In this document: positions 2,831-52,963 of the stretch, one piece after another
How the letters are laid out: each line of letters starts with the position of its first letter
Numbering within the stretch: position 1 is the stretch's first letter
Virus record (IMG/VR): IMGVR_UViG_3300031994_005355
Length of the DNA: 61,242 nt
Source of the DNA: a virus
Taxonomy: Duplodnaviria; Heunggongvirae; Uroviricota; Caudoviricetes
Direction: 5' to 3' (one strand)
Program-made: the position numbers and the translations under genes
The notes under the pieces: generated by a model
The model's database searches: none
The model's input: only the letters and a program-made list of their open reading frames with translations
What the model was told of the DNA's origin: nothing

Positions 2831-4510
2831 ATGGCACTGTCAAATGTCCAGCGTGCTGCTGTAGCAATTGTGTCTGCAACAACACTTATTGCAGGTGGAA
2901 CTGCTGCTTATAATATGTATATGTCTAAATATGTAGCACAACCTTTAACTTTACTTGAGAAACATGAAATACCAACAGCTGTTGATAATTTCAACATACC
3001 ATCAGGTTTATCAGGTAAAGATATAGCAGCAATGGCAGCAAAGGTATGGATACATTATGCTGAGTCTGGAATAATTTACAGTCAGAATTCATGTACAAAA
3101 ATTTATGTTGATCGAGCATATAAGTATAATAAAATGGTAGAAGAATTTAATAAAAATCCTGATTTAAAAAAGAAATATTCTTCACAAGATCCATTGAATA
3201 AATTCCCATTCAATAGAACTGCAGACTGTAACTCCTATGTAAAAGATGTTCTGGATAAATGTGGTATACGTCCTCCAATGGGTTGGGCAGAAACAGGTAA
3301 TTTAGTTCAAGATAAAGACCCTAGTAGAAATTCAAATTCTGAAACTGAGATATTAAATTCCTATAGTGCTAGTTATTTTAAAAATGAAGATAATATAGCA
3401 AAAGATCCAAATTGGAAATTGATATTTTCAAATAAAACAACAGAAGAGTTAAAAGCAGGTGAAGGATTAAGTCCAGGTGATATAGCTGCATGTGAAGGTC
3501 ATGTACAAATTTATCAAGGAGATGGTCTTTGGTGGTCTTGGGAATCTAATTACTTAAATGATGCAAAAAATCCTGATGGTCTTACTGAAAGACGAACATA
3601 TACTGAATTTGAAAAAGAAGTACTCCATGCAAGAAGTAATGATAATGATAGATACATTTATGATGATACATTTCCAAATAGTATAGAATATAAAATGCCT
3701 TGTCCATTGAGAGATCATGGACCTGACACTAAGTGGACTGTAATGCGTTATGATGGTAAATCTTATGGAGATCCAGAAAACCCTGCACCATATATTGCAA
3801 AAATAGCTGGACATTGGGGTAAAGATACAGAACCAAATCCAGAAAATAAAGATAGAATATATTTAGGCACAACTAAGAAATTAGTTTTAAATAAACGTCC
3901 AATAAAAGATAAACCAATAATAGAATATACGTATGACGATATTTATAATGCTTATCGTACAAAATGGAAAGATACAGAAGATGTATGTCCTAAGTTATCT
4001 AACTATATGGCTTGGGAGTTTAGTCCTGGGAGTGAACACCCTTGGAATGGAGCAAGTTGTAGAAGTTATGATCAATCTAAATTAAATCCTGTTGGAAAAG
4101 ATAAGTCACAATGGTATCAAGATTCAAAAACAGCAATTAATGCAACTACTGTTGAATATGTATTAATTACTAGGTCAGAACCACATGAATTAAGATATTA
4201 TCAAACAGACATAGTAGATACAAAAGCACATACATTTTTAAGTAACACAAATAATAAATTAAATTGGATTATTCAAACGGGGTTTGCTTTAGGTAAAAAT
4301 TCTAGTAAGCCTGGAATATTCTATACAAAAGCAGGAGGTAATTCAGATAATTATTCAACACAGTATTCTAGTGAAGTTGGTAGCAATCAATTTTACAATG
4401 ATGCACAGCAATGGTTAAGTAATGGTTTAATGGAATTACGAGCAATCAATCAAGCAGACAAAGACTGTGAAGGTAATTATTATATCGTTGGTATACGATA
4501 TTTTAAATAA
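2831..4510 (+). CDS. Secreted/anchored peptidoglycan hydrolase, NlpC/P60 domain plus an unidentified C-terminal domain
   Basis: N-terminal hydrophobic segment; ADCNSYVKDVL (catalytic Cys) and PGDIAACEGHVQIY (His) match the NlpC/P60 pattern. The C-terminal DTKAHT segment is reminiscent of RlpA/3D-like barrels (weak). Confidence 0.7.
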   Translation: MALSNVQRAAVAIVSATTLIAGGTAAYNMYMSKYVAQPLTLLEKHEIPTAVDNFNIPSGLSGKDIAAMAAKVWIHYAESGIIYSQNSCTKIYVDRAYKYNKMVEEFNKNPDLKKKYSSQDPLNKFPFNRTADCNSYVKDVLDKCGIRPPMGWAETGNLVQDKDPSRNSNSETEILNSYSASYFKNEDNIAKDPNWKLIFSNKTTEELKAGEGLSPGDIAACEGHVQIYQGDGLWWSWESNYLNDAKNPDGLTERRTYTEFEKEVLHARSNDNDRYIYDDTFPNSIEYKMPCPLRDHGPDTKWTVMRYDGKSYGDPENPAPYIAKIAGHWGKDTEPNPENKDRIYLGTTKKLVLNKRPIKDKPIIEYTYDDIYNAYRTKWKDTEDVCPKLSNYMAWEFSPGSEHPWNGASCRSYDQSKLNPVGKDKSQWYQDSKTAINATTVEYVLITRSEPHELRYYQTDIVDTKAHTFLSNTNNKLNWIIQTGFALGKNSSKPGIFYTKAGGNSDNYSTQYSSEVGSNQFYNDAQQWLSNGLMELRAINQADKDCEGNYYIVGIRYFK

Positions 4511-4555: not shown

Positions 4556-5119
4556 ATGTTTAAACGAACTATTTTAATCACACTTGTAGCTTTATTTATC
4601 ATTTCTATTATTGCTGTTATAATATATTATAACATACATAATAGTAAAATCAAAGAAGTAGAAATATCTCATATGGAAGCTGAAGAACAGCAGCAGTCTT
4701 ACAAAAATATTGTAGACTTAAATAGTGACCATGGAGATGATGTAATTCAGGAGCGTGTAGAACATGAAGGTTATACATATGTAAAAGCAGACCATACTCC
4801 AATTGATAAAGAAGAATTTAATGAATATTTTTGGACACTTTATTATGATTGTATGGATACCACAACACTTTATCCTGAAATGCATATTTATAAAACATTA
4901 ATAAAAGATAAAGATAACGCACGTCTTTACACAATAAGTACAGAAGTTCTACCTATAGAAGATGTTACTGGAATGATGTTATTCGATGGAGTTGATACAT
5001 ATTATTTAGTAGTCAATTTATCTAGCATATCTTCAGATTATACTTATTGTTATAAAGAAGCAACTGATCTATTCAAATTGAATGAAGATAAATGTTATAT
5101 GGTAAAGATTAAGGAATAA
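4556..5119 (+). CDS. Membrane-anchored hypothetical protein
   Basis: Strong SD (AAAGGAGG); single N-terminal TM followed by an acidic extracellular domain. Confidence 0.75.
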   Translation: MFKRTILITLVALFIISIIAVIIYYNIHNSKIKEVEISHMEAEEQQQSYKNIVDLNSDHGDDVIQERVEHEGYTYVKADHTPIDKEEFNEYFWTLYYDCMDTTTLYPEMHIYKTLIKDKDNARLYTISTEVLPIEDVTGMMLFDGVDTYYLVVNLSSISSDYTYCYKEATDLFKLNEDKCYMVKIKE

Positions 5120-9669: not shown

Positions 9670-10626
9670 ATGAAGTTAGCGAAATATCTACCAATTAACA
9701 TTGGTTGTTCTAATGCTGCCATTTATACGGCAACAATGACATTTCCTATAAAATTACTTCGTGAAGCATACTCCTATATAATGGGAGATATGTCTAATCT
9801 TAATATAACACTCAATCAAGGCGTGTTAACATTCCGCACAAATCCGGAATATTCTTGGACTATTCCGGAAATAGTTGCGGCATACAATTATTATAAAGTT
9901 GCTAAAGAGAATGATTTTAGTTTCATACCTATCTATACAGCTGATATGAAGCAACCTTTTGCTCTTATATCTTCAATGGTACAAGGTACTAGATTCGTGT
10001 ATTTATGTATGACTGGAGAAGCTCTTGAATTAAGACGTAAATCATACTATCAGTTATTCACACAGTATACAACTGCTAAGTGTGATCCTGTAGATTTCTA
10101 CAGACTGTTTCAGATTATAAAAGATATGACTCAGCATCCTAAAACGTATTTAGATGCACTTATATCTGGGCGTGATCAGAATGAAGAGTGTATGATTATG
10201 TCACCGTATAAGATAAAATCATACAACAACAACACAGTATTTGAGACAGAATACTATGAAGAGTTGATTTCTATAAATGAAGAAAATCCAGAAGGAAAGT
10301 ATTTCATATTAGTTGAAGATGAAATTCATAGTAAAGATGGCTGTGAGATATATACATTTGATGATGTTGAATACATTAAGAGTGTACATAATAAAGTATA
10401 CGCAACTAAATCAAATTACTATGAAATCTTCATAGAAAGTAATACAGATCATCCAAGGTTTTATGTGTCTACAGATTTTAAGCATATAGTAGATGCATAT
10501 TCGTTTAAGTATCACACACCAAATAATGCAGCTCTTTTAGAGTATCTATATAACATAACTAATCAAGGTATTATTAAAGATTCAGTTGCTGTTCTTATAG
10601 ACAACATTTTGAAGACAAATGCTTAA
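9670..10626 (+). CDS. Hypothetical protein
   Basis: 318-aa ORF with SD GAAAAGGTGA; overlaps virB4 start. Confidence 0.7.
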   Translation: MKLAKYLPINIGCSNAAIYTATMTFPIKLLREAYSYIMGDMSNLNITLNQGVLTFRTNPEYSWTIPEIVAAYNYYKVAKENDFSFIPIYTADMKQPFALISSMVQGTRFVYLCMTGEALELRRKSYYQLFTQYTTAKCDPVDFYRLFQIIKDMTQHPKTYLDALISGRDQNEECMIMSPYKIKSYNNNTVFETEYYEELISINEENPEGKYFILVEDEIHSKDGCEIYTFDDVEYIKSVHNKVYATKSNYYEIFIESNTDHPRFYVSTDFKHIVDAYSFKYHTPNNAALLEYLYNITNQGIIKDSVAVLIDNILKTNA

Positions 10627-16934: not shown

Positions 16935-17474
16935 TTAAATTTATGGTTTACTAAACCAATAGAAAATGAATATATAGGTAAAAAAGATACTTGGTTTCCA
17001 TTAATCTTTCAGAAAGAATGGATGAATGATCAGATTATGATTGATGTGTGTGATATGGTTCGTCATCATAAGTATCTAGGTGATGGTGCTTGGCGTAATG
17101 AAAAAGGTTTTATATGTGGACCAGATAAATTACCTGGCACACTTAAGACATTGATAATGATGTGGAACATGCCTGATGAAATATTTCCTATTGTGTACGT
17201 CGGACCGATTGCAAATCATGCTTTAAAATTAATAACAGACCAAAAAGATATAGATATTTCACACGGAAGTATTTTTGCTTTTACGTGGGATCCGGAACAA
17301 ATGGTACGCCTAATGGAAGTAGATGGTCAACCTATTATAAATGTAAATGAAATGTATGAATATCTATATGATCTTGGAAGAGTTAAAGATATGTATACAG
17401 ACGTTATTTGGAACTTTACGAGAGGTGGTATGAAAGATTATGAGCAAACATATCTTAAACACACCATTCACTGA
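16932..17474 (+). CDS. DUF4869-family protein
   Basis: MLNLWF...WF..EWMND...GPDKLPGTLKTLIMM...VG matches the DUF4869 pattern (MLNIYF...LSGGVKTLIL...CG). Start at ATG 16932 inside the repeat. Confidence 0.7.
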   Translation: MLNLWFTKPIENEYIGKKDTWFPLIFQKEWMNDQIMIDVCDMVRHHKYLGDGAWRNEKGFICGPDKLPGTLKTLIMMWNMPDEIFPIVYVGPIANHALKLITDQKDIDISHGSIFAFTWDPEQMVRLMEVDGQPIINVNEMYEYLYDLGRVKDMYTDVIWNFTRGGMKDYEQTYLKHTIH

Positions 17475-17580
17475 CATTACATTTGAACCAGAATATAAAG
17501 TATCCTTATGGGTTGGAATTGGCGCAGATGGTAAAAGTGCATTTCAGAGATTAACTATAAAGAGTTTTATGAATGGTTAA
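17440..17580 (+). pseudogene. Truncated P-loop ATPase fragment (46 aa)
   Basis: SD AGAGGTGG; MSKHILNTPFTDITFEPEYKVSLWVGIGADGKSAFQRLTIKSFMNG* contains a strand plus Walker A-like GIGADGKS and stops shortly after. Not in the ORF track. Confidence 0.5.
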
Positions 17581-17602
17581 AAAATAGTAACGGTAATATC
17601 TA

Positions 17603-18709
17603 ATGTCATTAAAAACATTTTTATATATCTCTTGTGTGTTATCAGTTCTTATTTGTATCTTAACTGTGATACAATTTAAGAAAGCACATACAGAGTATAA
17701 AGTTAGTTACAAGAAAATTGAAATAGGTATTGAAAAGCCTAATGTGTACTATTCACCTGAAACATTAGCAGATGGCAGTAATAATCAGCAGTTAATAATA
17801 AACAATATTACTGATAGTACACAAAATAAACAACAATTACAAACAAATACTTTAACTACTCAAGAATATCAAAAAGTAGTAAATATGGTTGACATTAGTT
17901 ATCCAAATGCTAAATTGTATCAAATAGCAGATCAATATTATCAAGTCTATTATGATAATCAACGTGTGAGTCCGTTATTTCCCTTAGCACTTGCAAATGT
18001 TGAAACACCTGGACGTGCTGATAATAATATAACTTGGTCAGCATTATTTCCTTCAAAAGTAGTAGACTTTGATTTAATAGATAACTTTAATGTTACATAT
18101 GTTGCACAAGATCCCATAACATATAATGCTTTAATGCATGAATACTCTACACGTGATCGCGGTGCATTACAAATGTCACCCACTTATGGCACTAAGAATG
18201 AATCATATAATTCACAAATGACAGGAACAGAAGTTGAGAAACTTTCCGCAATAAATATAAATCCTAAAGCTGTAAGTTGGGCACAAGGAGCGTCCAGTTA
18301 TAGTGGTGATCGCTTTAATATAAAGGATGTATGTCTGCGTTTAGCAAGTGCTGACTATAATGCAGTACAAGACATACAAAAGCATAATGTTAATATAGAT
18401 TCTGAAATCGAATTAATAATTATGATGGCAATGTATCATCATCGTTCAGGTGTATGGCATGTTGATGGTGCAGGTGGTTGGAGAAGTTTTGATAAAGCAC
18501 TTGCATATGCTAAATATTTAGCATCACAAGATATGGTCACAAGTCTGAATGATATTTATAAAAGTTCTGAAGCATTGACATTAGATGGTAAAGTAGCACT
18601 TAAATTATGCCCAGAATGGAATAAATACACAACGTCATCATTAGAAGCAAGTTACCCAATTAAGGCTTTATATTCTTATATAGTTTTATTACATAAATAT
18701 GGAAAATAA
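17603..18709 (+). CDS. Membrane-anchored lysozyme-like/lytic transglycosylase-fold protein
   Basis: N-terminal TM; PLALANVET (catalytic Glu at helix end), RGALQM (GxxQ) and MAMYH motifs of the lysozyme/SLT superfamily. Confidence 0.55.
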   Translation: MSLKTFLYISCVLSVLICILTVIQFKKAHTEYKVSYKKIEIGIEKPNVYYSPETLADGSNNQQLIINNITDSTQNKQQLQTNTLTTQEYQKVVNMVDISYPNAKLYQIADQYYQVYYDNQRVSPLFPLALANVETPGRADNNITWSALFPSKVVDFDLIDNFNVTYVAQDPITYNALMHEYSTRDRGALQMSPTYGTKNESYNSQMTGTEVEKLSAININPKAVSWAQGASSYSGDRFNIKDVCLRLASADYNAVQDIQKHNVNIDSEIELIIMMAMYHHRSGVWHVDGAGGWRSFDKALAYAKYLASQDMVTSLNDIYKSSEALTLDGKVALKLCPEWNKYTTSSLEASYPIKALYSYIVLLHKYGK

Positions 18710-18742
18710 GGGTACTCATGTACCCTCATGAAAGGAAGTGAT
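18709..18742 (+). promoter_or_regulatory. Hairpin+RBS motif copy 4
   Basis: AGGGTAC-TCAT-GTACCCT followed by CATGAAAGGAAGTGAT, then TTG start at 18748. Confidence 0.6.
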
Positions 18743-18747
18743 GCATA

Positions 18748-19563
18748 TTGAAACATGCAACAGTTAAGTACACACTTGCAGTGTTAGGTTCAGTAGTATC
18801 AATCGGTACTGCATCTATGATAGCAAGTAATCAGTGGTCAAGAACTGATTACCTAGATTCGTCCAATCCGATTGCTATTACATTACCTAATACTATTGAT
18901 GTATTTACAAATATTTCTCCTGATGTAGAAGAGTTAAAAAATAAAGATGCTCCATTAGAAAAAGAGAAAGATAAAACAAGTAATGCACAACAACCAAATG
19001 TCGAGTTACCTGCACCTGTAAATCCTTCTGATAAATTAAGTTATATATGGTCAGAATTGACAAAAGTAATGTCTGATGAAGCCGCTGCTGGTGTTATGGG
19101 AAACTTACAAGCAGAACATGGTTTTAAAACAGATGATACCCCTAACGGTTTAGGTATGGTACAATGGACTGGTGGACGTAAAACACTTGCACAAACACTT
19201 GCACAACAGTTTGGAATGCTACTTAATTCAGTTGAATTTCAAGTAAAGTATATCTTAATGGAGTTAGGTGGCGATGCAGGTAATGGTGTAAGCAATCAAT
19301 ATAGAAGCGATGCAACTCATGTAGCTAATTATGCAAATGCTATTGGTGCAGCATCAAGGATTGCGGGTCGTACACTACCAACTTCTGTAATAATGGATGC
19401 TAATTCATTTAAATCATGCAATGATGTAGACTTAGCTGCAATGTCTTGGATGTGTTTATATGAACGTCCAAGTTCTTCGATAAAAGCAGATGGGACTCCT
19501 GTATGTCACGCAGATGTAAGAGCAAATGCTGCACAATCAATATATCAGACTTATCACAGATGA
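18748..19563 (+). CDS. Phage-tail-type lysozyme (Phage_lysozyme2-like) with N-terminal signal/anchor
   Basis: AAAGVMGNLQAE, GLGMVQWTGGRK, FQVKYILMEL, YERPS, RANAAQSIY motifs. Confidence 0.85.
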   Translation: MKHATVKYTLAVLGSVVSIGTASMIASNQWSRTDYLDSSNPIAITLPNTIDVFTNISPDVEELKNKDAPLEKEKDKTSNAQQPNVELPAPVNPSDKLSYIWSELTKVMSDEAAAGVMGNLQAEHGFKTDDTPNGLGMVQWTGGRKTLAQTLAQQFGMLLNSVEFQVKYILMELGGDAGNGVSNQYRSDATHVANYANAIGAASRIAGRTLPTSVIMDANSFKSCNDVDLAAMSWMCLYERPSSSIKADGTPVCHADVRANAAQSIYQTYHR

Positions 19564-20240
19564 ATACATTATTAATAACTTGTACATTAGCAATGATTGC
19601 ATTTGTAGTTTTATATTTACGTATAAATAAACACATAAGTACACGAATGTGTATAATAGCAATCATTGTTATCATACTATTAGATTTTCTTTTGATTTTT
19701 ATTCTATCTAAATTCAGTCAACCTGAAGAGTCGCCAGATACAGAGAGTACAGTATCTACAGAGGTGTCAGAAGAAATACAACTAACACCTATAGAAGAAA
19801 GATATAAAACAGTATATGATTTAGGTACTGAGTTCACAGCTGATGAACTTAAAGATGAAGATACTATGTATTCTGAATTGATTTCATATGTTAGTGATTT
19901 CACTATGAATAATAATTACCCATTTCCTGGATACATTGGTTACATAAATACAGATTCAGATGGAACACATTTTTATTTCTATACTTATTTAGGTACTCAA
20001 GTCTATGACTGTGTACCTGTAGGAAATAAGTTATACATAAATTTTTATGGTTCAGTATATAATAAGGGGTTTAAAGGAATAATCTATGGTAATGTGAACT
20101 CCACAAGAATAAATATAAAAGGACTTGAAAAACGTTTGATACGTATGGGTCTTAATGATTTCTTTACTATCACAGATGTTACAGATAAAGAAGTAACTGT
20201 TACATCACCTAATTGTGGTACTCACACATTACGGATATAG
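19560..20240 (+). CDS. Membrane protein (2 TM) with acidic extracellular domain
   Basis: ATGA overlap with the lysozyme stop gives start 19560 (track 19503); two N-terminal hydrophobic helices. Confidence 0.7.
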   Translation: MNTLLITCTLAMIAFVVLYLRINKHISTRMCIIAIIVIILLDFLLIFILSKFSQPEESPDTESTVSTEVSEEIQLTPIEERYKTVYDLGTEFTADELKDEDTMYSELISYVSDFTMNNNYPFPGYIGYINTDSDGTHFYFYTYLGTQVYDCVPVGNKLYINFYGSVYNKGFKGIIYGNVNSTRINIKGLEKRLIRMGLNDFFTITDVTDKEVTVTSPNCGTHTLRI

Positions 20241-20247
20241 GTAAATT

Positions 20248-20982
20248 ATGAATAAAAAGTTATTAGTTATAATTTTAGGAACACTATCAACGATAATAAC
20301 AATATCTTTATTTCTAATGTCGACTGGTTCTTTACATAACCCAGAAGAAGTCTCACGTAGGTATCATGAAAATTTAGATAGCACAGCCTATCATTCAATA
20401 GTTGCACAGACTATTATAGAGATGTTTCATGATTTTATTGAACCTAAACATTCTGAAGAAAACCCTTTAGTAGAAGCTGGACATAAACCAGGCGAACGTG
20501 AATATGGTGGTGGCGAAGGTGATACACCTGGTGAAGTTCCACCGATAACAGGTGAAGGAGGAGCACGAATTGCCTCAGCTGCACAATCACTATTCTATGA
20601 CTATGCTATAAATAGACACTATTATTACAGTCAATTTAATTTTACTGAAGCTACTGATTGTTCACACTTCGTGTGTGACGTACTTAATTCTATAGGAATT
20701 AGAGTCGAATATCAAAGAGCCGTTAAGTGGTACACTAATGGGCAAGTAGGTTTTACAAAAGTTGCAACAGTGCAAGGTGCCAATGCTGGAATTTCGATAG
20801 CACAGCCAGGTGATATATTTGCTAGGGATGGACACGTGATGATATATGCTGGCAATGGTAAATTCTGGTCGTGGGGTGGTTATAATAATCAAAAAGTAGA
20901 CCGCAACTTTCCTAATGGCAATACAAACCCTACAACTAGTAATAGTTCATCAATACATACAATATGGAGATATACTCAATGA
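20248..20982 (+). CDS. NlpC/P60 peptidoglycan endopeptidase, membrane-anchored
   Basis: TDCSHFVCDVL and QPGDIFARDGHVMIYAGNG; N-terminal TM. Confidence 0.85.
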   Translation: MNKKLLVIILGTLSTIITISLFLMSTGSLHNPEEVSRRYHENLDSTAYHSIVAQTIIEMFHDFIEPKHSEENPLVEAGHKPGEREYGGGEGDTPGEVPPITGEGGARIASAAQSLFYDYAINRHYYYSQFNFTEATDCSHFVCDVLNSIGIRVEYQRAVKWYTNGQVGFTKVATVQGANAGISIAQPGDIFARDGHVMIYAGNGKFWSWGGYNNQKVDRNFPNGNTNPTTSNSSSIHTIWRYTQ

Positions 20983-21695
20983 AAGTTAAACATTTTCTGA
21001 TTATTATAGGTTTAATAGTAGTAGCATTAGTAACGACAATACTTGTTTTCTTTGTATTTGGTAATAAGAAATCAAATATTGAACATGCACAAGTACAACA
21101 GTATATGGAAGAGAATACAGCAACTACTTTAAGTAAACCAATCGAGAGTGCTACTGATGTAGCAAACATTGAACGTTATGATGGAGACGGTTCTAAAATT
21201 GATTTACAAAGTAGTGCAATAGTAGAAACAAGTAATTTGAATGCTACTGGTAAATATATTTCAAATAATATTTATGATGCACAAGAATGTGCTCACTTAA
21301 AAGATATAAGTGACGCATATTTACATACACTTGGTTATACAGAAGATTTTCAGTATATTTATAATAAACAAAATGACATCATAATAATTGAAGTTTTAGA
21401 CGCGGATATTGTACTCACAGTAATAGGTGACGATGATGTCTATCTTACTGAAAACTCTAATGTGCCAATAGTGTATAAATGTGATGTAACAATTGAACAA
21501 GAAAATCTGTTACAATCATATTTCCTATCAAAGTACGATCCCTATAAAATAGCTTTATATTTACTTCAGAATAATGAATCTGGTATAGTATACAAAACTA
21601 CTAACAGTGATGAAGCAATTGAAGTTTCATGGGATGAAATAAAAGAACAAATAGAGGAGATGTTACATGACGAAGCAGGAGACGGAGACTTCTAA
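20979..21695 (+). CDS. Membrane-anchored hypothetical protein
   Basis: ATGA overlap at 20979 (track 20964); single N-terminal TM and acidic ectodomain. Confidence 0.7.
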   Translation: MKVKHFLIIIGLIVVALVTTILVFFVFGNKKSNIEHAQVQQYMEENTATTLSKPIESATDVANIERYDGDGSKIDLQSSAIVETSNLNATGKYISNNIYDAQECAHLKDISDAYLHTLGYTEDFQYIYNKQNDIIIIEVLDADIVLTVIGDDDVYLTENSNVPIVYKCDVTIEQENLLQSYFLSKYDPYKIALYLLQNNESGIVYKTTNSDEAIEVSWDEIKEQIEEMLHDEAGDGDF

Positions 21696-22290
21696 TCGTA
21701 ATAATCGAATTGCCTTAATTGTCGTACTAATTATTTTCATGTTACTTTTAATTTTAGTTTTAATCTTTTCAGTGAAACCTAAAGAGGAAATAGAAGAACC
21801 TACACAGGAGATTACTGAAACACAAGAACTTGCGATGGATGCTATAGAAAAAGGCATGATACAAGTTGAAAGTAATATGCGACAAAAACTATCAGATATG
21901 GGATTTGAATCCAAAATTCCAGTAGATACTTGGTTTTATTATGATCAATATGGTTTACTGCGATACACTTCTCAAGTGCGTTATAGTAATCTTTGGGTAG
22001 ATACAGGCGACGCATACGACACAAGTAAATATAAATGGCAGGAACCTGAACGAATTCTAATTGGCAATGAACAAGTTGGTAATCCAAATGACTACAGAAC
22101 TAATGAATTCATTACACAGGCAGAAGATCCTAATAATACTTACTATGTAGAAGAGGTTGATGACAAGCATGTTATATTTGTTGATCCTAAGACAAATACA
22201 ACGTACAGATCAACCTATATACTTCAAGCTCATGCTTTCCAAACTGAAGAGCTTAACGAAAATTATTACGACTATATTTCTCATATTTGA
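21667..22290 (+). CDS. Membrane-anchored hypothetical protein
   Basis: SD GAGGAG; TM IALIVVLIIFMLLLILVLIF; acidic ectodomain. Confidence 0.7.
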   Translation: MTKQETETSNRNNRIALIVVLIIFMLLLILVLIFSVKPKEEIEEPTQEITETQELAMDAIEKGMIQVESNMRQKLSDMGFESKIPVDTWFYYDQYGLLRYTSQVRYSNLWVDTGDAYDTSKYKWQEPERILIGNEQVGNPNDYRTNEFITQAEDPNNTYYVEEVDDKHVIFVDPKTNTTYRSTYILQAHAFQTEELNENYYDYISHI

Positions 22291-23123
22291 AAAAGAAACG
22301 ACCAATAAAACAATCAATATTTATAGTGTTTGCAGCCGTTGGTATAATTGCTTATGTAGCATTTATGGTAATGAGTTCTTCACTCATAAGTACTGAAAAT
22401 ACATTGTTAAGTTATCTATGGGGACAGCAAAATACGTTACTTAAACCTACTGACATTTCTATGATAGAGAGTGCTCAAGAAGTACGTACAGATGCAAATG
22501 ATGCATCCCCAGACAAAGTAGATACTAAAGATAAATCAAAAACCATTTACGTAGACCCTGGTCATGGTGGTGATTCATCAAAAGGTCCTCGTAATGGTAC
22601 AAAGCCTGGTGGACCATTTAAATGTGATCCCAGTCTTACAGAAGCTGTCAATAATTATGCAGTAGCATTGCAAGTTAAATCTTTGCTTGAGAAAGAAGGC
22701 TATAGTGTACAAATGTCACGCAATCAAGCGGATGGTACTTCAGCTATTGGTAATTATGAACGTGGTAAACAAGGAGCAAGATGTGACGGTTACATAGCAA
22801 TTCATTCAAATGGTGGTATGGGACCTGGTTGTTTACTAGTCGTTCCAGATAATTTTGCTACGGAATATAACCATGAAATGGGTGATAAGTTTTTAGAGTT
22901 AATGAATAAGATTGGTATAAATACAAATGCAACAGCATACTGTGTCGAATTGATATATTCTGGACAAGGATACAAAGAAAATGGTGGTGACACCTCAAAG
23001 TTCTTGTATTGTGAAATTGGAGCACATGATGATATGCAACAATCACAGTTTATATCTAGCGACGATGGTAGAAAGGAAATTGCAAAATGTATCGTAGAAG
23101 CATTTCTAGTTTGCATGAAATAA
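22287..23123 (+). CDS. N-acetylmuramoyl-L-alanine amidase (Amidase_3), membrane-anchored
   Basis: IYVDPGHGG, EAVNNYAVALQVKSLLEKEGYSVQMSR, IAIHSNG, LYCEIG give the zinc ligands and the catalytic Glu. Confidence 0.9.
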   Translation: MKKKRPIKQSIFIVFAAVGIIAYVAFMVMSSSLISTENTLLSYLWGQQNTLLKPTDISMIESAQEVRTDANDASPDKVDTKDKSKTIYVDPGHGGDSSKGPRNGTKPGGPFKCDPSLTEAVNNYAVALQVKSLLEKEGYSVQMSRNQADGTSAIGNYERGKQGARCDGYIAIHSNGGMGPGCLLVVPDNFATEYNHEMGDKFLELMNKIGINTNATAYCVELIYSGQGYKENGGDTSKFLYCEIGAHDDMQQSQFISSDDGRKEIAKCIVEAFLVCMK

Positions 23124-23139
23124 GAAAGGATTAAATACA

Positions 23140-26100
23140 ATGCACAAGTCATTAAAACGGTTTAGTATCTTACTTGCTTTTATGACTTTATGTACATCAT
23201 CACCTGCTTTCGCTGATGTAGTAGCAACTGCACAAACCGGTGAGAACTCAAAGGTTAGCATCTTCGAAAGACTTGATAGTGCAAATTATCCGGACTCTTA
23301 TTATAATGACGAGTTTACTTGGTCTGATGTTAATCAGCAAGTAATAGATAAGTCATATCCTGAAGGAGATCCAAGACGTTACACATTACCTTGGGGACGT
23401 AAACGTAAAGGTATAATAAACGGTAACGAAGTAGGTAGTATAGGATTACGTGAGAAGCAGCTCACAGGTCGTGACTGGATGATTGTAAATCCTAACTACA
23501 AACCTAAACAGGGAACACCACTTTATGATGATGAAGTAAAAGCTTTTAATAACGGTAACATTCTTTGGAATAAAGTTAGTAAAGCTGTTTACGATAAGTG
23601 GATGAGTTTTGAAAATGGACCTGGTGACTCACCTTTTTATGAGACTGGTGAATACGGAACCATAAAGCAATTATCTGTTGCTGGTAAGAATTATGGTGAA
23701 GTAAAAACTAAAGAAGCTCATAAAGTATGGGTGACAACATCTGAGCGTCCTCAGGACTATAAGGATACAAATGGTAAACCATATGAATATGATGCAGATA
23801 CTGACAATGTCTTCAATTTAGATAAAACAAAGAAGACGCAGTTAAATGCATTAGTAAAAGATCCTTATGGTGACAATAAAACTGATTATCAGTACACACG
23901 TTCACGTTATCAAGTTGTGGTACGTCATAAAGCTCGTGGTACTGATCATCACTCAGAATACTATATAAATGGTAGATCATATGCTTCAAATGATCCAACA
24001 GTTCCAGCATATAAGTTTGAAGCAAATGTGACACCTAAACTTAATATATCTGAAGAGTACTTAGATTTCAAACCTTTTGGTAAGATAACTTCTTGGGATC
24101 AGTATAAAGATCAGATAGATCCTCAAGGTGGTTGGATGTTCAAGACTGCTTATGAATCTTGGGGATTTGAAGACTACGATTATACGGGTGAGAATGGTTA
24201 TATTCTTTATGATTTTGATAAAGATACATTCTATAATCACGCTGATGATGGAACTTATCCTTTAGCAAAGCATGATGCTATTGAAGGCGCTAATGTTCCT
24301 TCTTCTGGCGGTGTAGTACGTCCGTATGAAGAAGGTATGTTCCAAAAGTATGATCCTACAAGAAATCTATATACACAGATACCTAATCCTGGTAACTATA
24401 AGAATTATCAGTTATATAAATACTTTATTCCTGCTACAACAAAAACTTCTAATTATACAGTAAATGATTTACCTAGCATATATACGAAGACTGGTAAATA
24501 TGTAGATCAGAAGCCTGAAGAAGATAGCAAAGAATGGACATATAAAGAACGTGTAACTGATGTAGATGATATAAATAATTCTGATTTCACTTACGGATTA
24601 TTTCACTCACATAAACTTGTTAAAGGACAGTTAGATTCATATAGTTCCAGTCCGTATTTTGGGACTCACTTCAATATGGATCAGACTTATGTGAATGCAC
24701 GTACACATGCTATTGTACGCGGATATATACGAGACAGTGAAGAGCCTGCTTTATACGCAGCTGATAATCCATATAATAATATGTGGAATAATCTGTGGTT
24801 TACAGATGGTACGTTCACTGTACCTCGTACAGGTTCGGCACGTACACAGGATATTGACGATGCAAATTTCAAACCTCAGTTCATGTCTTGGGATCCTAAC
24901 TTTGAGTATTATAAAGCTCTTAAGACTGCACTGTTAAAAGCAGATAAAATAACTACTGCTGGTAAAGACACATTTACAATACAGAACCCAAGTTTCAAAA
25001 CTTCAGGTACAGCAACATTCGATAAGAATAATATGTATACGGTTTCTTCTAAAGACATAACAGAACCTGTATCTGTATGGAGTGATTGGAAAGATGATTC
25101 CATATCTGTTACAATTCCAAGTGGAAACTTTTATTACGATCAATCTTCTGTAAGGAGTCAACTACAAAATTTCTTAAATTCATATAATTCTTTACGTGAT
25201 ACAAGTACAAGACAGTACTCAAGTATAAATAATCCTAGTATTTCAACATATCTTAGATGTGAAAGCAATTACCATAACGATCATACATATCATATTTCTG
25301 GAAGTACTACATCAGTTGTATCGGAATTAATAGATAGAATTTATAATTACTATTATGATCATCCTTATAATCATCACTACCCTTATAATCATCCTTATTA
25401 TTATGATAATTATATGAGCAGCGACGTAACTAAATTCACTGTTACATATAAGTATCGTGACCTCACGACTACACAAGAAAAAGTTGGTACTGCATATACT
25501 GTAAAGCTTAATGGAACTCTTGTAGCACCTGGCTCACTTGGTGATAGTGCTTCAGATTATCAAAAGTTCTTAGAGCTTTCTTATAATGAAAGAAGTTCAA
25601 ATACAAACTATGTTGGTACAGGTGCTTGGTTCAAAGCAATATTCAAAGAATATTCAAAGGCAGCACTGTATCAGGATTACGATCATAAGACACTTACATC
25701 ACGTCCTGGCGAACAAGGATGGGTACAACCTGCACGTGATATGAACTTCCAACCTCGTTCTCATGAACGTAAACAGTATTTCACATTTGATATTTATACA
25801 CGTGAACTTGCGGCTGATGGTAACACATATTACACATACAATACACCTATAGCAATGTTTGATGATAATGCTGACACGTCTATAAAGAAACTTGATGGTG
25901 TGGAGGTTACCGGAACAAAAGCACGTACACGTTCTGAAGATTTATTCCAGTATCTATTCCGTACAAACTTCATTTATGATGCTTTACAGGAGTATATGGA
26001 CTGGACACCTAATAATAATTTCTACACAGATAAACTAGATACTAAGTCAGATTCAGATAAAAACGCTGTAAATGAGAAATACTTCAATAGATATACTTCA

Positions 26101-29100
26101 CGTACTTCAACTGAAAAAGTTATGCGTGATGGTGCAGAAGTTGAAGTTGTAAAAGCAACAAAAGCACTTAGTAAGGAGTTTTCATACTTCCCTTACACAG
26201 ATGCATCTAATGTAAACTTTACTTATAACAATAATATTCTTCAGAAGTATTCTTTATGGCTTACACAGAAAGGTATGACTTATGAAGATTTCTGCAAATA
26301 TGGAAAAGACTCTAATGGTAAACAAGTACCTATTTCCTATAATAATAAAGGTATAAAGATTTACAATACTGAGGACGTTATTTTCCAGCAAGTACTTATG
26401 AATAATCATGGTGAGACTGTTCAAGCGTTTGTACCTGCAAATAATCAGACACGTAGCCTATATGCAAACGTACACTTTGATTCTGATGAAGGAAACAATG
26501 TCGTAGACGATGAGTTTGAAGTTTGGCCTTCTGGTATAAAAGAAATCAAAGCAGCTTGTACTGCAGGTGATTATGCAAATCTTGGATATGTACAATTCTT
26601 AAATACAGATTCAAAAGTAGGTGATACTAAGAAAGTTTCTGGACGTTCATATACACATTCAACTAATTTTGACCCATACTTGAATGGTGCAGTTGTATAT
26701 CCTACAAAGAATAGGTATAATGGTGTAATTGAAAGACCTGTTTATGAAACACAAGAAAAGGATATTTATGGCGTTATACAGAATGTCGAGATACCTACAG
26801 TACATTATTATACGGTTTTAGTAAATCCTTTAGGTTACACTCTTGACACTGTAAACTGTGCTGCAGCTGTGCAACAGGAAGATATAATTGATGAATCACA
26901 TCATGATTCATTAGCAAACTTCTTAAATATGGCATCAGCAACATTCGCATTTACTGATGGTAAAGACACTGACACACACATAAATCCTGCATGGTGTTAC
27001 AATGTGGCTTTCAAAGTAAATGGCAATGCTAAATTAGACTATGAAGCTAGTCTTGGTGACAACTTTATGTTAGATTCTCTAGATACATTAAATAGATCTT
27101 CTACAGGTTTAGTAGCTGCCTTAAATTACTATAGTTATGAAAACTTTAATAAAGAAAACCAGAGTTATACAATACAAAATACACCATATGTTTTACAGCC
27201 TACAACAGATAGAACAAATTGGGATTATGCAAATAATGTATGGAATGGTTATGGTTATAGTTATACAGGTTCACAGGCAGAGGGTGGTATGAATGATGTA
27301 AAAATGTATAGGGGTAATAATCCCGAAACTAAGACTTTACACCTTGATGCTAATGGAATAATTATAAATGATGAATTTACATTATATGCTGCTAATGAAG
27401 AAGAAGCTAAAAAAATACATAAACAAAGTCAACAAAAGCCAAAAGACGCTGAACTTACTGAGGAATCTTTGATAAGGTTAGTTGAACCATATCACACTAA
27501 ATCTATAAACGTACAAATTTCTGATTCAGGATTGAATGAACTAGAACTTAACTCAGAAACTATAAAAAATATAAAAGGCTACGATCAAAATTCAGCTGAT
27601 GTAGATAATCCTAATTACTATAAACCATCTACAATATATTTTCCTCGTTTATATAATAAAGATCTTGTATTTGAAAAAATGAAGATAAATGGTGTATATG
27701 ATTATTATGATACAAATAAAGACCCATTAGCACAGACACAAGATTTTGAAAATAACACTAAAAATATACAGTACATGTCTACGCTACCTAGATTTAACAA
27801 TCAGAATATGACTTTAACACAAGCAACCGATACTGCGTTAGCATTAAAAACCCAAATACATATTCCTAATGTATTTGCTGGTACACCTGTTATGTTATTA
27901 GCATTACCCGAGTACGAACAAGGATTACATCATTTAGACACTAAAGTTACTAAAGGTCTAGAAGTTGACTATTATGTAAATCATCCAGATTTTAAAAATA
28001 TAACAGTGCGTGCTGACAATAGTATTGAAGAAAATAAACAATTTCAAATACGCACTTATACAAATTTAGATTCAATGGGTATTAATCGTTGTATGTTTAT
28101 AATGCCAACACAAAACATTAATATAACATTTAATTCAGATACTGTAGATGTAGTTTACGCACCATCGGTATCAAAACAATTTGAATTAACTTCATTAGAT
28201 GAAGTGTCTAATTTTTATGTAAATATGTATAATATTGTAAGTAAAGGCACAACAGGATTAACAGCTGGATTTTTACATACAACTCCTTATACTCAAGATG
28301 TTACTGATGGAATAGACTTAATTAAAGATGAAGACTATATTATACAAAATAATAATAATGCAGCTAATAAAGATAGAGTATTTTGGGTACCAAGTAAATA
28401 TCAATATAAATCATCCTATGCATCATCTAAAGATAAACCATGGAGTAAGTCTAAGAAAGATCAGTTTTATAAATATTGGTATGATGATTATGGTACAGGG
28501 TTTCACTCAGATTATGAGAGTAATAGTTATGCATATGTGAAAAATAAAAAACGTATTGCACATTATAATTACTTCAAGAGAGACTATCAAGATGAATTAA
28601 GCGATGGTACGATAATTCACAAGTATGTTACTCCATACGAATGGTATGATAAGGCGTCAAAGGATAAACGAATTTATATTTACTCAGTTGTGGATAGTGA
28701 ACGCTCAGCGAGTGATTCAGATTCAGAATCCGACCTAGCTACTGATAGTGACCAACCAGCTGACCAACGTCTTTATTCAGCACTATATATAGAGCTTCCA
28801 CAGAATAATAAAATACCATATTTTACATTAACACCTTTTGCACCTGGTACATATTTTTCGTCATATCCTGGAATAAAGAAAAATACGATAGATGATTATA
28901 TACAAGCACAATTAGATAATCCACAAGGTGTATATACACCATTAGCTAAAGCTACATTAACAGCTACGGAACCTACTAGCACATCTGCACCTACTACTTA
29001 TGAATATAATGGTGGTAAATATTGGGACGTTCCTGTTGAATTTACTGATATACTAGATAACAAACATATAGATGTGAGTGCCACAAAAAACACTAAAATA

Positions 29101-32100
29101 CCATTTATTACATTAGACACATCTACAATTAAAAATAACTTTGTAGATATAGATAATATAGATAATAAAGTTATGAAAGCAATAGCAGTATCTGATCGAA
29201 AGGACGCTATTACATCTAACATTGAACAATTATTAAGTACATTAAGTATAAGAGATATATCTTTAGATGAGATTGTACAAGTAAAACCTTCTTATAAAAC
29301 CTTACGTAAGAAAAAGAAAATTGGACAAAATCAAACTGTTAAGCAATATTCAGACGGTAAAGTAGTACAAAAACAGAAACTAAAGAAAGTACAACTAAAT
29401 AAATTATACACAGTAAAGAAAATGAAATACAAGGCTAAATTATCAAGGGCAGAATTAGATAAATGGTTACAATTTGCTTCTGTGCGTGACATGATAAGTG
29501 GTGGAGATCCAGTTGAAGATGATGTACTACAAGAATACTACGTATTTCCAGAACATGCATCATCAAATTCTTATATATTAAAACATCTAACAAATTTCTC
29601 AAGAGAAATAAGTGAAGATATTAACAAGGATAAACCAGATAATGTTTCTCTAGAAGGATTTAAATACGCTGTTGATAATTATGATTATAGATTGGCATTA
29701 TCTTATTTAGGTTTACCATTATTAACAATACAACCTGTAACCATAGGTACAGTAAATAAGAAACTTATGGATAGTCTATGGAAGCATGTCAATAATAAAA
29801 ACGAAACTACTGAATTAAGAAATAAAGTAATGCAAAATAGACAAATATTTAGTACAGCACCAATTGACGATTATGTAACTAACTTACTAGGATATGGTAC
29901 CTATATGTTTAAAAATGGCAATGGAATAGCTTTCGGATTCGGTAAGGATTATTCAATTTTCCAATCCAGTTACACAGATACTACTGATCTTTATGCGTAT
30001 TATAGAGGTAATCCTATTGGTGCAACACGACCAAAAGTATTATTATTTGATATATTTACACAAGCTAATATAAATCCAGAAACAGGAAAACTTAAACGTG
30101 TTAGGGAACGTAATGAAGCTTATACTAAAGTAAAGGATAGGGACCCAGATGAAGAATATACAGAACCTAAGTATGAATATTCCTATCATGTAGCTAATGG
30201 ACGAAAATTAAATACTATACTAAATTCAAATTCTTCTTATGTCGCATTTGTAGGTTACAATAAAGCGAAAAGTTTAGTTAAAAAGAGTAAAGATATAACT
30301 TATAAAATGCCAAGCCATCTAAGTTTATATGGTAGTGATGATGACGGTGATGATGATGATGACATATATGATCCTGATGAAGTAGAAGACCAAACTAATG
30401 ATACAGGTAATGATACAGAAGATGAAGCATCTGATGATGGTGATGTGTCAGGTTTAACTGAAGACCCAGATACAGAAAAAGATTGGGGACAAAAAGGTCT
30501 TTGGAGTACATCTGTTTACACTATTGATGGTTCCACACAAGAAAAAGCACGTAATTCTAAAAAATATGCTAAACAAGTATATGGATTTTCTTGGAGTGGT
30601 AACTATATGATAGGTCTTACAGGTTCTGGTTCTGGAAGTAAAAGTAAACGAGACTCTTATATAATTATGCAACCAAATGAAACAGGTCAGATTATAAATG
30701 TATATGGCATGAATTCGAGCTATTCTAATCCTGTAGCGATGGTAATGCGTGATAATATATTACTTCTGAAAGAAACTAATAATGGTGTAATGCTTTTTAA
30801 GTGTACACTAACTAGTTCAAATTATTTTAAAGAAGTTAAAAATGAGTATAACAACATTATGAATAAGGAATATGATAAAGATGATTATACTAAAAAAGAA
30901 ATTGCAGAAGATAGACTAACTATGTTACGTGCTTTATTACTGAATAGTATGTTAAAGGGAGATAAAGATGATACAACAGTAATACCACCAGCACAAACTG
31001 CCAACTTATACACTAATACAAATGATGCCGTTAAAAATATCATACCTGGTTTTATGATAGGTAGTTCTGATTATAAGAAGTATGGTGACACTAATTACAT
31101 TTACTACAGTGGTAATTATACATGGGAAGCTAGTACAGCAGATCCTGATGAGTTTAGTACGTATTCCAAAGGTGTTGTGTATAATCCTGATGGTACAGTA
31201 GCTTATGTACAATCGGGTAAAGAATTCTATGATAGCTCACTTAAACAAGCAGCAAAAGAGGCTAAGAAAAAATATAAAGTAAAGAAGAAAAAATTAAATA
31301 GTAACAACATATCTGATAGTGTAAATTATATTACAAAACCTAGAGTTGCTGGTCTTGAGAACGTACCATTAGATAGTAGTAATTTAATTGTACACGGTAC
31401 TGGTGGTGCATATCCAATGCAGATAAATTCTAGTTCAAAGAAATCAGTATTTGGGGTCACCGGAAACTATAAAGCAGATATAGATTATTATGTACTATCT
31501 GGACCAGAGTATAAACCAAACAAATATCCACAGTTATCAATTAAAAATTCTTATAGAAACATAAATATGAATGGTATTGAACATATGGGTTACATAATAG
31601 CACCACAACCTGTAAATAATGATGAACAAAAACGTACGGGTTTTGAAGTTGTATATAGTGGATCATATGTTATACCTTACTTAAATATGTTTATTAATTC
31701 TTTCGAGTATTCAATAATTAGTAGTGCTCCAGGGTACACACAACTAGATATAGATAATCTTCATGCAAGTGATTACAATATAGAACATTTATTATTTTAT
31801 TTAATGAATGGTACTCCCGTACAATCTTCTGATACACTGTTACAATATTTTATGGCACAACCAATGCTATTTGTTAATGTTACTCAATGGTATGGAATAG
31901 CACTTGATCCAGGTATATGTATATACCGTGGGGATGGTTGTAGGTTTAGTAATGAGAGTTATATACAATTATATGATCTAATGTTACAATATTCAGCAGT
32001 ATATAATACATATGCAAAAGGACAAGGTGTTGCTGTAGAAAATGCAGATCAACATAATAGATATTATAAATCTACAAATGCAGAATTAGCAGCTTACAAA

Positions 32101-52870: not shown

Positions 52871-52879
52871 TAAAAACTC

Positions 52880-52918
52880 AGGTGTGTACTTCATGTGCAC
52901 ACCTTTGAAAGGATGTGG
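52880..52918 (+). promoter_or_regulatory. Hairpin+RBS-like motif copy 5
   Basis: AGGTGTGTAC-TTCAT-GTGCACACCT followed by TTGAAAGGATGTGG; 10 nt after the pilin stop. Confidence 0.6.
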
Positions 52919-52963
52919 TTAATAATCCTAAATAGTGAAAAATAAAAAGTGAGGATATAAAAT

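What the first reader, a model, noticed from the sequence alone, without database searches (positions are those of the whole stretch)
18748..22290. Hydrolase genes are each followed by coupled, surface-exposed acidic proteins (effector-immunity-like pairing)
Seen: lysozyme then 19560 (ATGA overlap); NlpC/P60 then 20979 and 21667 (ATGA overlap); also 2831 then 4556, and M15 peptidase then lipoprotein 35481. The partners are mutually dissimilar, membrane-anchored and face the same compartment as the enzymes. Known: T6SS Tae/Tai and Tge/Tgi pairs have this organisation. Inference: cognate inhibitors or regulators that protect the donor wall, or entry-exclusion factors.
Basis: inference. Interest (0 to 1): 0.7.

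Follow-up and report, generated by a model that had tools for sequence, protein, structure and literature searches.

The report
Conserved wall-hydrolase operon with orphan partners
Three cell-wall-cutting enzymes in a giant rumen phage-like element sit between three membrane-anchored proteins of unknown family, and this six-gene order is kept in two distant relatives, but nothing yet shows that the anchored proteins are immunity proteins for the enzymes.

Summary
The genes are real and the enzyme calls hold: Phage_lysozyme2 (18748), a weak NlpC/P60 (20248) and Amidase_3 (22287), all with their key catalytic motifs. The non-enzymes at 19560, 20979 and 21667 each have a strongly hydrophobic N-terminal anchor, an acidic linker and a conserved globular domain. 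They match no Pfam, PHROG, NCBIfam or PDB family.

New here: the order B-C-D-E-F-G recurs in a second metagenome contig (L001, 35-48% protein identity). B-C-D recurs in a third (L002). So this is a conserved module.

The "pairing" itself is weak.
- The stretch lies in an unbroken run of 13 genes that all carry a membrane anchor or signal (12 N-terminal, one C-terminal). Enzyme-then-partner order occurs as often as chance predicts (3 seen, 2.8 expected).
- Overlapping genes are the norm in this window (24 of 54 junctions).
- The 21667 "ATGA overlap" is really a 29-base overlap.
- Three enzymes have no small partner after them, and the lipoprotein is not acidic.
- The enzymes carry Sec-type signals and act on the producer's own wall, so they are not delivered effectors.

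My best reading (about 0.4) is accessory or tethering subunits of a local wall-remodelling complex. Cognate inhibitors remain possible (about 0.25). The complex prediction gave no verdict.

The parts
17603..18709 (+). A: 368-aa protein with a strong N-terminal anchor and no recognised family. It is the first gene of the 13-gene run of anchor- or signal-bearing proteins. Another note suggested an SLT-like fold; that was not confirmed here.
18709..18726 (+). 7-bp G+C-rich hairpin between A and B, directly before B's ribosome-binding site (GAAAGGAAG).
   Evidence: -15.3 kcal/mol, z -2.77
18748..19563 (+). B: exported Phage_lysozyme2-domain muramidase-like enzyme. TTG start. Its N-terminal segment is weakly hydrophobic and rich in Gly/Ala/Ser/Thr, so it is signal- or SAR-like. 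The QAEHGF motif is conserved in L001.
19560..20240 (+). C: orphan-family protein with two N-terminal transmembrane helices and a positively charged loop between them, then an acidic linker and a conserved C-terminal domain (56-63% identical to L001 in 30-aa blocks). It has an ATGA overlap with B.
20248..20982 (+). D: exported NlpC/P60-type peptidase with Cys (DCSHF) and His (GHVMIY) present. It has a signal-like N-terminus ending in MSTG and a Gly/Pro/Glu-rich linker.
20979..21695 (+). E: orphan-family protein with one strong N-terminal transmembrane helix. It is the most acidic protein of the window (pI 4.23). Only one relative was found among 1.84 billion representative proteins. It has an ATGA overlap with D.
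21667..22290 (+). F: orphan-family protein with one strong transmembrane helix and an acidic linker. It is the best-conserved partner (48% identity to L001). It overlaps E by 29 nt, and F's Shine-Dalgarno site lies inside E's C-terminal codons. The confident model part (residues 51-127) is a long helix followed by four strands.
22287..23123 (+). G: N-terminally anchored Amidase_3 (N-acetylmuramoyl-L-alanine amidase). The DPGHGG and HSNGG motifs are conserved. TTG start overlapping F's stop (TTGA).
23140..32952 (+). H: 3270-aa secreted protein with a signal peptide ending AFA|D and no Pfam domain. It follows G in place of a small partner.
2831..4510 (+). g2831: 559-aa protein with an NlpC/P60-like region paralogous to D.
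   Evidence: blastp 1e-7; no Pfam hit
4556..5119 (+). g4556: 187-aa acidic protein with a strong N-terminal anchor and no family. It starts 45 nt after g2831 and has its own Shine-Dalgarno site.
33009..34181 (+). Exported YkuD-type L,D-transpeptidase. It is followed by another enzyme, not by a partner.
34514..35488 (+). Exported Peptidase_M15_4 (D-Ala-D-Ala carboxypeptidase type).
35481..35918 (+). 145-aa probable lipoprotein (lipobox LLTSC), pI 6.4, with an 8-nt overlap with M15 and no family.

Best explanation
18748-23123 is one conserved, co-translated operon of Sec-exported wall-acting proteins in a rumen phage-like giant element. Three intact peptidoglycan hydrolases (lysozyme B, NlpC/P60 D, amidase G) alternate with three proteins of new families (C, E, F). 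Each of these has a very hydrophobic, stable membrane anchor, a flexible acidic linker and a conserved globular ectodomain.

I think C, E and F are most likely non-catalytic accessory subunits. They would hold, position or gate the hydrolases at the membrane. Two of the hydrolases (B and D) look releasable. Wall cutting would then stay local and sub-lethal, for example to open the thick Gram-positive wall for the element's own envelope apparatus. That apparatus is suggested by the VirB4/TraC-like ATPase, the polytopic proteins, the giant secreted proteins and the pilin-like genes nearby.

Shown: gene structure, enzyme domains, anchors, synteny and conservation. Inferred: export topology, any contact between partner and enzyme, and the purpose.
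For: - Same order B-C-D-E-F-G in L001 at 35-48% protein identity and 42% against 33% GC. B-C-D order in L002.
- Partner globular domains are as conserved as the catalytic cores. Best 30-aa blocks: C 63%, F 63%, E 56%, against B 76%, G 63%, D 60%. Anchors and linkers drift.
- Enzymes and partners share one build: anchor or signal, 30-70-aa linker, globular domain.
- Tight coupling runs through D/E, E/F and F/G in both elements, with overlaps of -4/-29/-4 and -1/-32/-4 nt. That fits equimolar production of a set rather than separate enzyme-to-partner pairs.
- Partner anchors score Kyte-Doolittle 2.95-3.84. B scores 1.77 and D 2.0-2.5, with Gly/Ala/Ser/Thr-rich segments.
- No terminator-like site lies in 17000-24000.
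- Context: a 13-gene run of anchor- or signal-bearing proteins and a weak VirB4/TraC-type ATPase at 10619. That ATPase's nearest plasmid relatives in Bacillus are followed by an anchored M23 peptidase and then an anchored 209-aa protein.
- Contigs from an RNA library, 100% identical, cover parts of B to G. This is a weak hint of expression only.
Against: - No binding or complex is shown.
- C, E and F have no detectable homology or confident fold match to any scaffold, including VirB8/PrgL/TcpC types.
- The T4SS-like context rests on sub-threshold hits, and no coupling protein or relaxase was recognised.
- Only two relatives exist, both on short contigs, so the conservation argument has n = 2-3.
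- An inhibitor would show the same synteny and coupling.
Confidence: 0.4

Rival explanations
1. Cognate self-protection inhibitors. C inhibits lysozyme B. E and/or F inhibit NlpC/P60 D or amidase G. Inhibition takes place at the membrane face, so that exported hydrolases do not lyse the producing cell.
For: - Immediate downstream position with ATGA coupling for B/C and D/E.
- The partners are predicted to face the same compartment and are more acidic than most window proteins; E is the most acidic of 55.
- The partners stay with the enzymes in the relatives.
- The confident part of the F model is a helix packed on a small sheet, an arrangement shared by cystatin and PepSY inhibitor folds. The match is weak: Z 5.1, and TM 0.30 to a PepSY cluster.
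Against: - The enzyme-then-partner order is no more frequent than chance in the 13-gene run, P = 0.62.
- B/C coupling is not conserved in L001.
- G, A, YkuD and the giant protein have no small partner, while D has two.
- No match to the lysozyme- or endopeptidase-inhibitor or T6SS-immunity families held in Pfam or NCBIfam.
- The helix-plus-sheet arrangement is very common, and Z below 8 is not diagnostic.
- The enzymes are not delivered effectors.
Confidence: 0.25
2. Functionally unlinked exported proteins. C, E, F, g4556 and the lipoprotein have jobs of their own, such as wall or receptor binding, superinfection or entry exclusion, or channel parts. They sit next to hydrolases only because the element groups its exported genes in one operon.
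For: - 13 consecutive anchor- or signal-bearing genes, and a chance-level adjacency count.
- Overlaps are the norm in this window, 24 of 54 junctions.
- The partners are unrelated to each other.
- The ectodomains are rich in conserved aromatic residues, as in binding modules.
- Precedent: the ICEBs1 exclusion protein YddJ acts on the VirB6 homologue ConG, not on a hydrolase (bioRxiv 10.1101/2021.01.25.428195).
Against: Strict retention of the interleaved order, and of the E/F and F/G overlaps, across about 60% protein divergence suggests more than loose grouping. Exclusion proteins usually diverge fast, whereas these globular domains are well conserved.
Confidence: 0.2
3. A phage lysis cassette. 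B and D are secretory or SAR endolysins held at the membrane, and C, E and F are holin-, antiholin- or spanin-like timing factors.
For: B and D have weakly hydrophobic Gly/Ala/Ser/Thr-rich N-terminal segments like SAR domains. C has two transmembrane helices, as class II holins do. Earlier notes regard the contig as a huge phage. The lysin domains hit phage tail-lysin PHROGs.
Against: - C, E and F are 207-238 aa, each with a conserved extracytoplasmic globular domain of roughly 90-150 aa. Small holins with a charged tail look different.
- The same run holds wall-building or wall-editing enzymes (YkuD L,D-transpeptidase, M15 carboxypeptidase) and a 3270-aa secreted protein, which do not belong to lysis.
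- There are no holin or spanin family hits.
Confidence: 0.07

Closest known systems
T6SS amidase and glycoside-hydrolase effector-immunity pairs (Tae/Tai, Tge/Tgi); from general knowledge
   Same: A peptidoglycan hydrolase gene is followed directly, often with overlap, by a small exported protein gene. The NlpC/P60 superfamily is involved.
   Different: Tae and Tge lack Sec signals and are injected into neighbouring cells by a T6SS. Here the enzymes carry Sec-type signals or anchors, no T6SS genes were recognised, the partners match no immunity family, and the numbers do not pair up one to one.
Gram-positive conjugation modules (ICEBs1 conG-cwlT-yddI-yddJ, Tn916 orf15-orf14-orf13, pCF10 prgK/prgL, pCW3 tcpG/tcpC). 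Gene orders are from general knowledge; YddJ/ConG exclusion is from bioRxiv 10.1101/2021.01.25.428195.
   Same: An N-terminally anchored wall hydrolase (lysozyme and/or NlpC/P60) lies beside small N-anchored proteins, a polytopic VirB6-like protein and a VirB4 ATPase. The order g42 (889 aa, polytopic), g2831 (NlpC/P60), g4556 (anchored) mimics conG-cwlT-yddI.
   Different: There are at least five separate single-domain wall enzymes here instead of one bifunctional hydrolase. The VirB4 hit is sub-threshold. No coupling protein or relaxase was found. The partners have no detectable VirB8/NTF2 homology. The host element is regarded as a huge phage.
Membrane cofactors and secreted inhibitors of Bacillus D,L-endopeptidases: SweC/SweD with FtsEX-CwlO (PMC6705773) and IseA, inhibitor of LytE-type enzymes (PMC7299342)
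   Same: These are non-catalytic proteins that activate or inhibit NlpC/P60 hydrolases from the membrane or within the wall. They are the functional classes proposed here.
   Different: There is no sequence similarity. Those are chromosomal housekeeping regulators, and they are not encoded in a tight interleaved operon with their enzymes.
SAR and secretory endolysins of phages (P1 Lyz, phage 21 R21, oenophage fOg44 Lys44); from general knowledge
   Same: Phage-encoded wall hydrolases are exported by the host Sec system through a weakly hydrophobic N-terminal segment, as in B and D.
   Different: Those systems have one enzyme plus a small holin or pinholin. Here there are three to seven enzymes, including synthetic ones, and the partners have large conserved ectodomains.
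Phage G (megaphage of a Bacillota host) TraC-like and TraD-like genes (PMC12484599)
   Same: A huge phage of a Gram-positive host carries T4SS-type ATPase homologues of unknown role, as the window does at 10619.
   Different: tblastn found no match between the window's ATPase or F and any record in the phage collection. No linked hydrolase-partner block is described there.

Membership tests
T6SS Tae/Tai and Tge/Tgi effector-immunity pairs | The effector lacks a Sec signal and is delivered by a T6SS (Hcp/VgrG/PAAR linked) | tested here: not met
   B, D and G all start with a hydrophobic Sec-type signal or anchor. Pfam scans of 53 of the window's 55 ORFs gave no T6SS family.
T6SS Tae/Tai and Tge/Tgi effector-immunity pairs | The immunity protein belongs to a known Tai/Tsi/Tgi family | tested here: not met
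   No significant Pfam hit for C, E or F: two sub-threshold transmembrane-segment hits for F, none for C or E. No PHROG hits, and only weak transmembrane-segment hits in NCBIfam. PDB profile searches were empty.
T6SS Tae/Tai and Tge/Tgi effector-immunity pairs | The immunity protein binds and blocks its cognate effector specifically | not testable with these tools
This needs biochemistry.
T6SS Tae/Tai and Tge/Tgi effector-immunity pairs | One immunity gene lies directly downstream of each effector gene | tested here: inconclusive
   True for B/C and D/E. G, A and YkuD have none and D has two. The adjacency count is at chance level.
Gram-positive conjugative T4SS module | VirB4-family ATPase | tested here: inconclusive
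   g10619: TIGR02746 TraC-F-type E 2.8e-6 (25.5 bits, cut-off 567). P-loop_TraG E 1.9e-4, below cut-off. 22-24% identity to Bacillus plasmid DUF87 proteins.
Gram-positive conjugative T4SS module | Coupling protein (VirD4/FtsK-like) and relaxase | tested here: not met
   No such family was found among the window ORFs scanned with Pfam. The rest of the 294-kb contig could not be read.
Gram-positive conjugative T4SS module | VirB8-like (NTF2-fold) N-anchored scaffold among the small proteins | tested here: inconclusive
   F model pLDDT 62; residues 51-127 are confident (helix plus four strands). The best matches are cystatin-fold 4r80 (Z 5.1) and 2k3d (Z 5.0). VirB8 is not listed, but all Z values are low. 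The C model was unusable, pLDDT 47.
SAR/secretory endolysin lysis cassette | Endolysin with a weakly hydrophobic, Gly/Ala/Ser-rich N-terminal segment | tested here: met
   B: Kyte-Doolittle 1.77, Gly/Ala/Ser/Thr fraction 0.56. D family: 1.98-2.47 and 0.33-0.44. G is not of this type: 2.8-3.0.
SAR/secretory endolysin lysis cassette | Adjacent small holin or pinholin (usually under 150 aa, transmembrane helices plus a charged tail) | tested here: not met
   C, E and F are 207-238 aa with conserved extracytoplasmic globular domains and no holin family hit.
Proteinaceous lysozyme or endopeptidase inhibitors (Ivy, MliC/PliC, PliI, PliG, IseA) | Sequence membership in one of these families | tested here: not met
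   No Pfam or NCBIfam hit of that kind and no PDB hit. Fold-level similarity could not be judged because the models are poor.

The most novel reading that the evidence does not exclude
C, E and F are three new families of membrane-anchored, cis-acting 'self-immunity' or gating proteins. Each would be matched to one exported hydrolase. Together they would let a huge phage-like element remodel the wall of its living Gram-positive host with a full set of lytic enzymes, without killing it, until release is wanted.
Probability: 0.2. Interest if true: 0.7.

Novelty: new variant of a known kind. Interest (0 to 1): 0.4.

Why it matters
If the anchored proteins do control or position the enzymes, this would be a compact, conserved kit for cutting a thick Gram-positive wall locally from the inside. 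It is carried by a giant rumen element whose biology is almost entirely unknown. It would add three protein families to the short list of known hydrolase regulators. It would also bear on how huge phages, or phage-like plasmids, handle the host envelope during long infections. As it stands, the solid gain is smaller. It is a six-gene module conserved in three uncultured elements, together with a correction: the apparent 'pairing' is mostly a by-product of a long operon of exported proteins.

Tried and rejected
- Complex prediction for D (residues 100-244) with E (32-238): score 0.01, no verdict. It counts neither for nor against binding.
- ESM Atlas look-ups for C, E and F: no feature hits. 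The Atlas models have pLDDT 0.37-0.48 and their structure rows are meaningless.
- AF2 model of C alone: pLDDT 47, unusable.
- Fold searches with the F model in PDB (Foldseek), PDB wide (VIA), AFDB clusters, the Atlas and BFVD: nothing above the noise.
- PDB sequence and profile searches for A, D, C, E and F: nothing.
- Relatives of C, E and F in IMG/VR, JGI metagenome contigs and GTDB genomes, by protein, by alignment and by a degenerate DNA pattern: none.
- blastn of the block and tblastn of F and the ATPase against phage records: none. blastn of the block against plasmids: none.
- Word-index searches with E and with B found only themselves.
- hhalign among the partner alignments: no paralogy. 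The best result was a 25-residue C-terminal motif shared by F and C, probability 34%.
- Cluster members: only near-identical copies, so no population-level comparison was possible.
- Longer contigs carrying the L001 proteins: none.
- Strain variants: a bovine-gut contig of 158,883 bp covers the block at about 94% identity. The difference table was truncated, so per-gene substitution rates could not be computed.
- Parts of the block without RNA-contig cover are not interpreted.
- The upstream start for C at 19503 was rejected, because C's homologues align from 19560 and L001 has a strong Shine-Dalgarno site there.


Full report
WHAT IS THERE

The window is low in G+C (about 33%) and every ORF of 90 aa or more that looks like a gene lies on the + strand. 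It is part of a 293,727-bp ENA metagenome contig. Sequencing runs that hold the stretch come from sheep and bovine gut. Earlier notes of this scan regard the contig as a huge phage of a Bacillota host. I could not check that, because no genome is held for this window.

In the finding's stretch the genes are:
- B 18748-19563: Phage_lysozyme2, E 6e-19.
- C 19560-20240: no family.
- D 20248-20982: NlpC/P60, E 7e-5, just at the Pfam cut-off. It has the Cys motif DCSHF and the His motif GHVMIY. It is a paralogue of g2831 at 1e-7.
- E 20979-21695: no family.
- F 21667-22290: no family.
- G 22287-23123: Amidase_3, E 4.5e-10.

An independent gene caller on the source contig chose the same starts.

CHECK OF THE OBSERVATION

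The ATGA overlaps at B/C and D/E are real. The claimed ATGA overlap at 21667 is not. The letters are there, but E stops at 21693-21695, so E and F overlap by 29 nt. F/G overlap as TTGA. g2831 and g4556 are 45 nt apart. M15 and the 35481 lipoprotein overlap by 8 nt, and that lipoprotein has pI 6.4.

C, E, F and g4556 have acidic ectodomains, pI 4.05-4.65. However, 16 of the 55 window proteins have pI below 4.8, and the enzymes are acidic too.

The key point is that 17603-37720 is an unbroken run of 13 genes that all carry a membrane anchor or signal. Twelve of these are N-terminal and one is C-terminal. Within that run A is followed by B, G by a 3270-aa protein, and YkuD by M15, so 'each hydrolase' is not followed by a small partner. 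Shuffling the run gives 2.8 enzyme-then-partner adjacencies against 3 observed, P = 0.62. Overlapping junctions are also the norm: 24 of 54 in the window. The arrangement is therefore real, but as a 'pairing' it is not more than chance.

NEW EVIDENCE: THE BLOCK IS A CONSERVED MODULE

Word-index searches found nothing but the query for E and for B. An exhaustive HMMER search with E found one relative at 37% identity, E 1.8e-32. Its 4,054-bp contig (L001, 42% G+C) carries B', C', D', E', F' and G' in the same order. Protein identities are 47, 37, 39, 35, 48 and 43%.

A profile of C then found a third member on a 1,201-bp contig (L002). That contig reads lysozyme C-terminus, C'', then an N-anchored ORF.

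So all six ORFs are genuine, selected genes, and the interleaved order is kept across deep divergence. The D/E, E/F and F/G overlaps are kept as well: -4/-29/-4 nt here and -1/-32/-4 nt in L001. B'/C' in L001 are separated by 12 nt and C' has its own AGGAGG site.

No further relatives were found in IMG/VR, JGI metagenomes, GTDB genomes, phage records or plasmid records.

ANATOMY OF THE PARTNERS

Each partner has an N-terminal transmembrane part, a variable acidic linker and a conserved globular domain. C has two helices with a conserved positively charged loop between them, which puts the C-terminal domain outside the cell.

In 30-aa blocks the partners' globular parts reach 56-63% identity between the window and L001. 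The catalytic cores reach similar values: B 76, G 63, D 60.

The partners are unrelated to each other by blastp and hhalign. They match nothing in Pfam, PHROGs, NCBIfam or PDB beyond transmembrane-segment noise.

Models are poor. C has pLDDT 47. F has pLDDT 62, with a confident part at residues 51-127 that forms a long helix on a four-stranded sheet. The best structural matches are a designed cystatin-fold protein and Lin0334, at Z about 5, and a PepSY cluster at TM 0.30. All of these are within the noise range.

The hydrophobic segments differ between the two groups.
- Weak and rich in Gly/Ala/Ser/Thr, like signal peptides or SAR domains: B (Kyte-Doolittle 1.77), the D family (1.98-2.47, followed by MSTG), M15, YkuD, and the giant protein (1.59, with AFA|D).
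- Strongly hydrophobic: C, E, F, g4556 and g36494 (2.95-3.84).
- G and A also have strong anchors.

So B and D may be released from the membrane while their neighbours stay in it.

CONTEXT

Upstream lies a weak VirB4/TraC-type ATPase, g10619. Its nearest relatives in the plasmid collection are DUF87 proteins of 136-216-kb Bacillus plasmids. In one of these the ATPase is followed by an N-anchored M23 peptidase, an N-anchored 209-aa protein and an FtsK/SpoIIIE protein.

Phage G, a megaphage of a Bacillota host, is reported to carry TraC- and TraD-like genes of unknown role (PMC12484599).

No terminator-like site lies in 17000-24000. A stable hairpin sits just before B's ribosome-binding site.

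Contigs from a sheep-gut RNA library, identical to the window, cover parts of B through G. DNA carry-over cannot be excluded.

INTERPRETATION

The T6SS analogy fails on its defining points. The enzymes have Sec-type signals, there is no delivery system, the partners belong to no immunity family, and there is no one-to-one pairing.

What remains is a conserved operon in which three lytic enzymes and three stably anchored, non-enzymatic ectodomain proteins are made together. I rank the readings as follows.
1. Accessory, tethering or gating subunits of a local wall-remodelling complex that serves the element's envelope machinery: about 0.40.
2. Cognate cis-acting inhibitors: about 0.25.
3. Unlinked exported proteins such as exclusion or binding factors: about 0.20. 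ICEBs1 YddJ, which targets ConG, is the precedent.
4. A lysis cassette with SAR-type endolysins: about 0.07.

The one complex prediction allowed gave no verdict, so the choice between readings 1 and 2 needs the bench.

VERDICT

The immunity interpretation cannot be decided and is weakened on several counts. The durable result is a six-gene hydrolase-plus-orphan module conserved in three uncultured elements. Interest is moderate.

Noticed in passing
window 17603-37720: Thirteen consecutive genes all carry a membrane anchor or signal, twelve at the N-terminus and one at the C-terminus. At least five, and possibly six, are peptidoglycan enzymes (lysozyme, NlpC/P60, amidase, YkuD, M15, and perhaps A). 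One is a 3270-aa secreted protein with no Pfam domain.
   Followed up: partly
window 21667-21695; L001 2861-2892: The unusually long E/F overlap (29 nt) is conserved as 32 nt in L001. F's Shine-Dalgarno site is encoded by E's conserved C-terminal E-E/G-M codons.
   Followed up: partly
window 21421-21436: Strain variants in two bovine-gut runs show a cluster of small insertions and deletions inside E. This is the same spot where the window and L001 proteins need an alignment gap (around IGD-DDVY).
   Followed up: no
window 18709-18726: A 7-bp G+C-rich hairpin (z -2.8) lies directly before B's ribosome-binding site. Another note lists it as one of a dispersed hairpin family.
   Followed up: partly
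window 10619-12655; L003 10350-23968: The VirB4/TraC-like ATPase is 22-24% identical to DUF87 proteins of 136-216-kb Bacillus plasmids. There the ATPase is followed by an anchored M23 peptidase, an anchored 209-aa protein and an FtsK/SpoIIIE protein. A protein with a transmembrane hairpin lies upstream, as g5122 does here.
   Followed up: partly
window 52217-54147: g52217, g52964 and g53575 share their N-terminal 45-100 residues (blastp down to 3e-9). This looks like a small family with a common pilin-like leader or anchor.
   Followed up: no
window 19356-22963: Contigs from a sheep-gut metatranscriptome library, 100% identical to the window, cover parts of B, C, D, E, F and G. This is a hint of expression. 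It was not controlled for DNA carry-over.
   Followed up: partly
window 23140-32952 and 56779-61242: Two very large exported proteins, 3270 aa and more than 1488 aa, have no Pfam domain at all at E up to 0.05.
   Followed up: partly
window 21820-21884 (F residues 154-178) and 20148-20222 (C residues 197-221): F and C share a weak 25-residue motif near their C-termini (..F/Y.I.EV.DK.V.....P...T), hhalign probability 34%. It may be a common small beta-hairpin unit.
   Followed up: no
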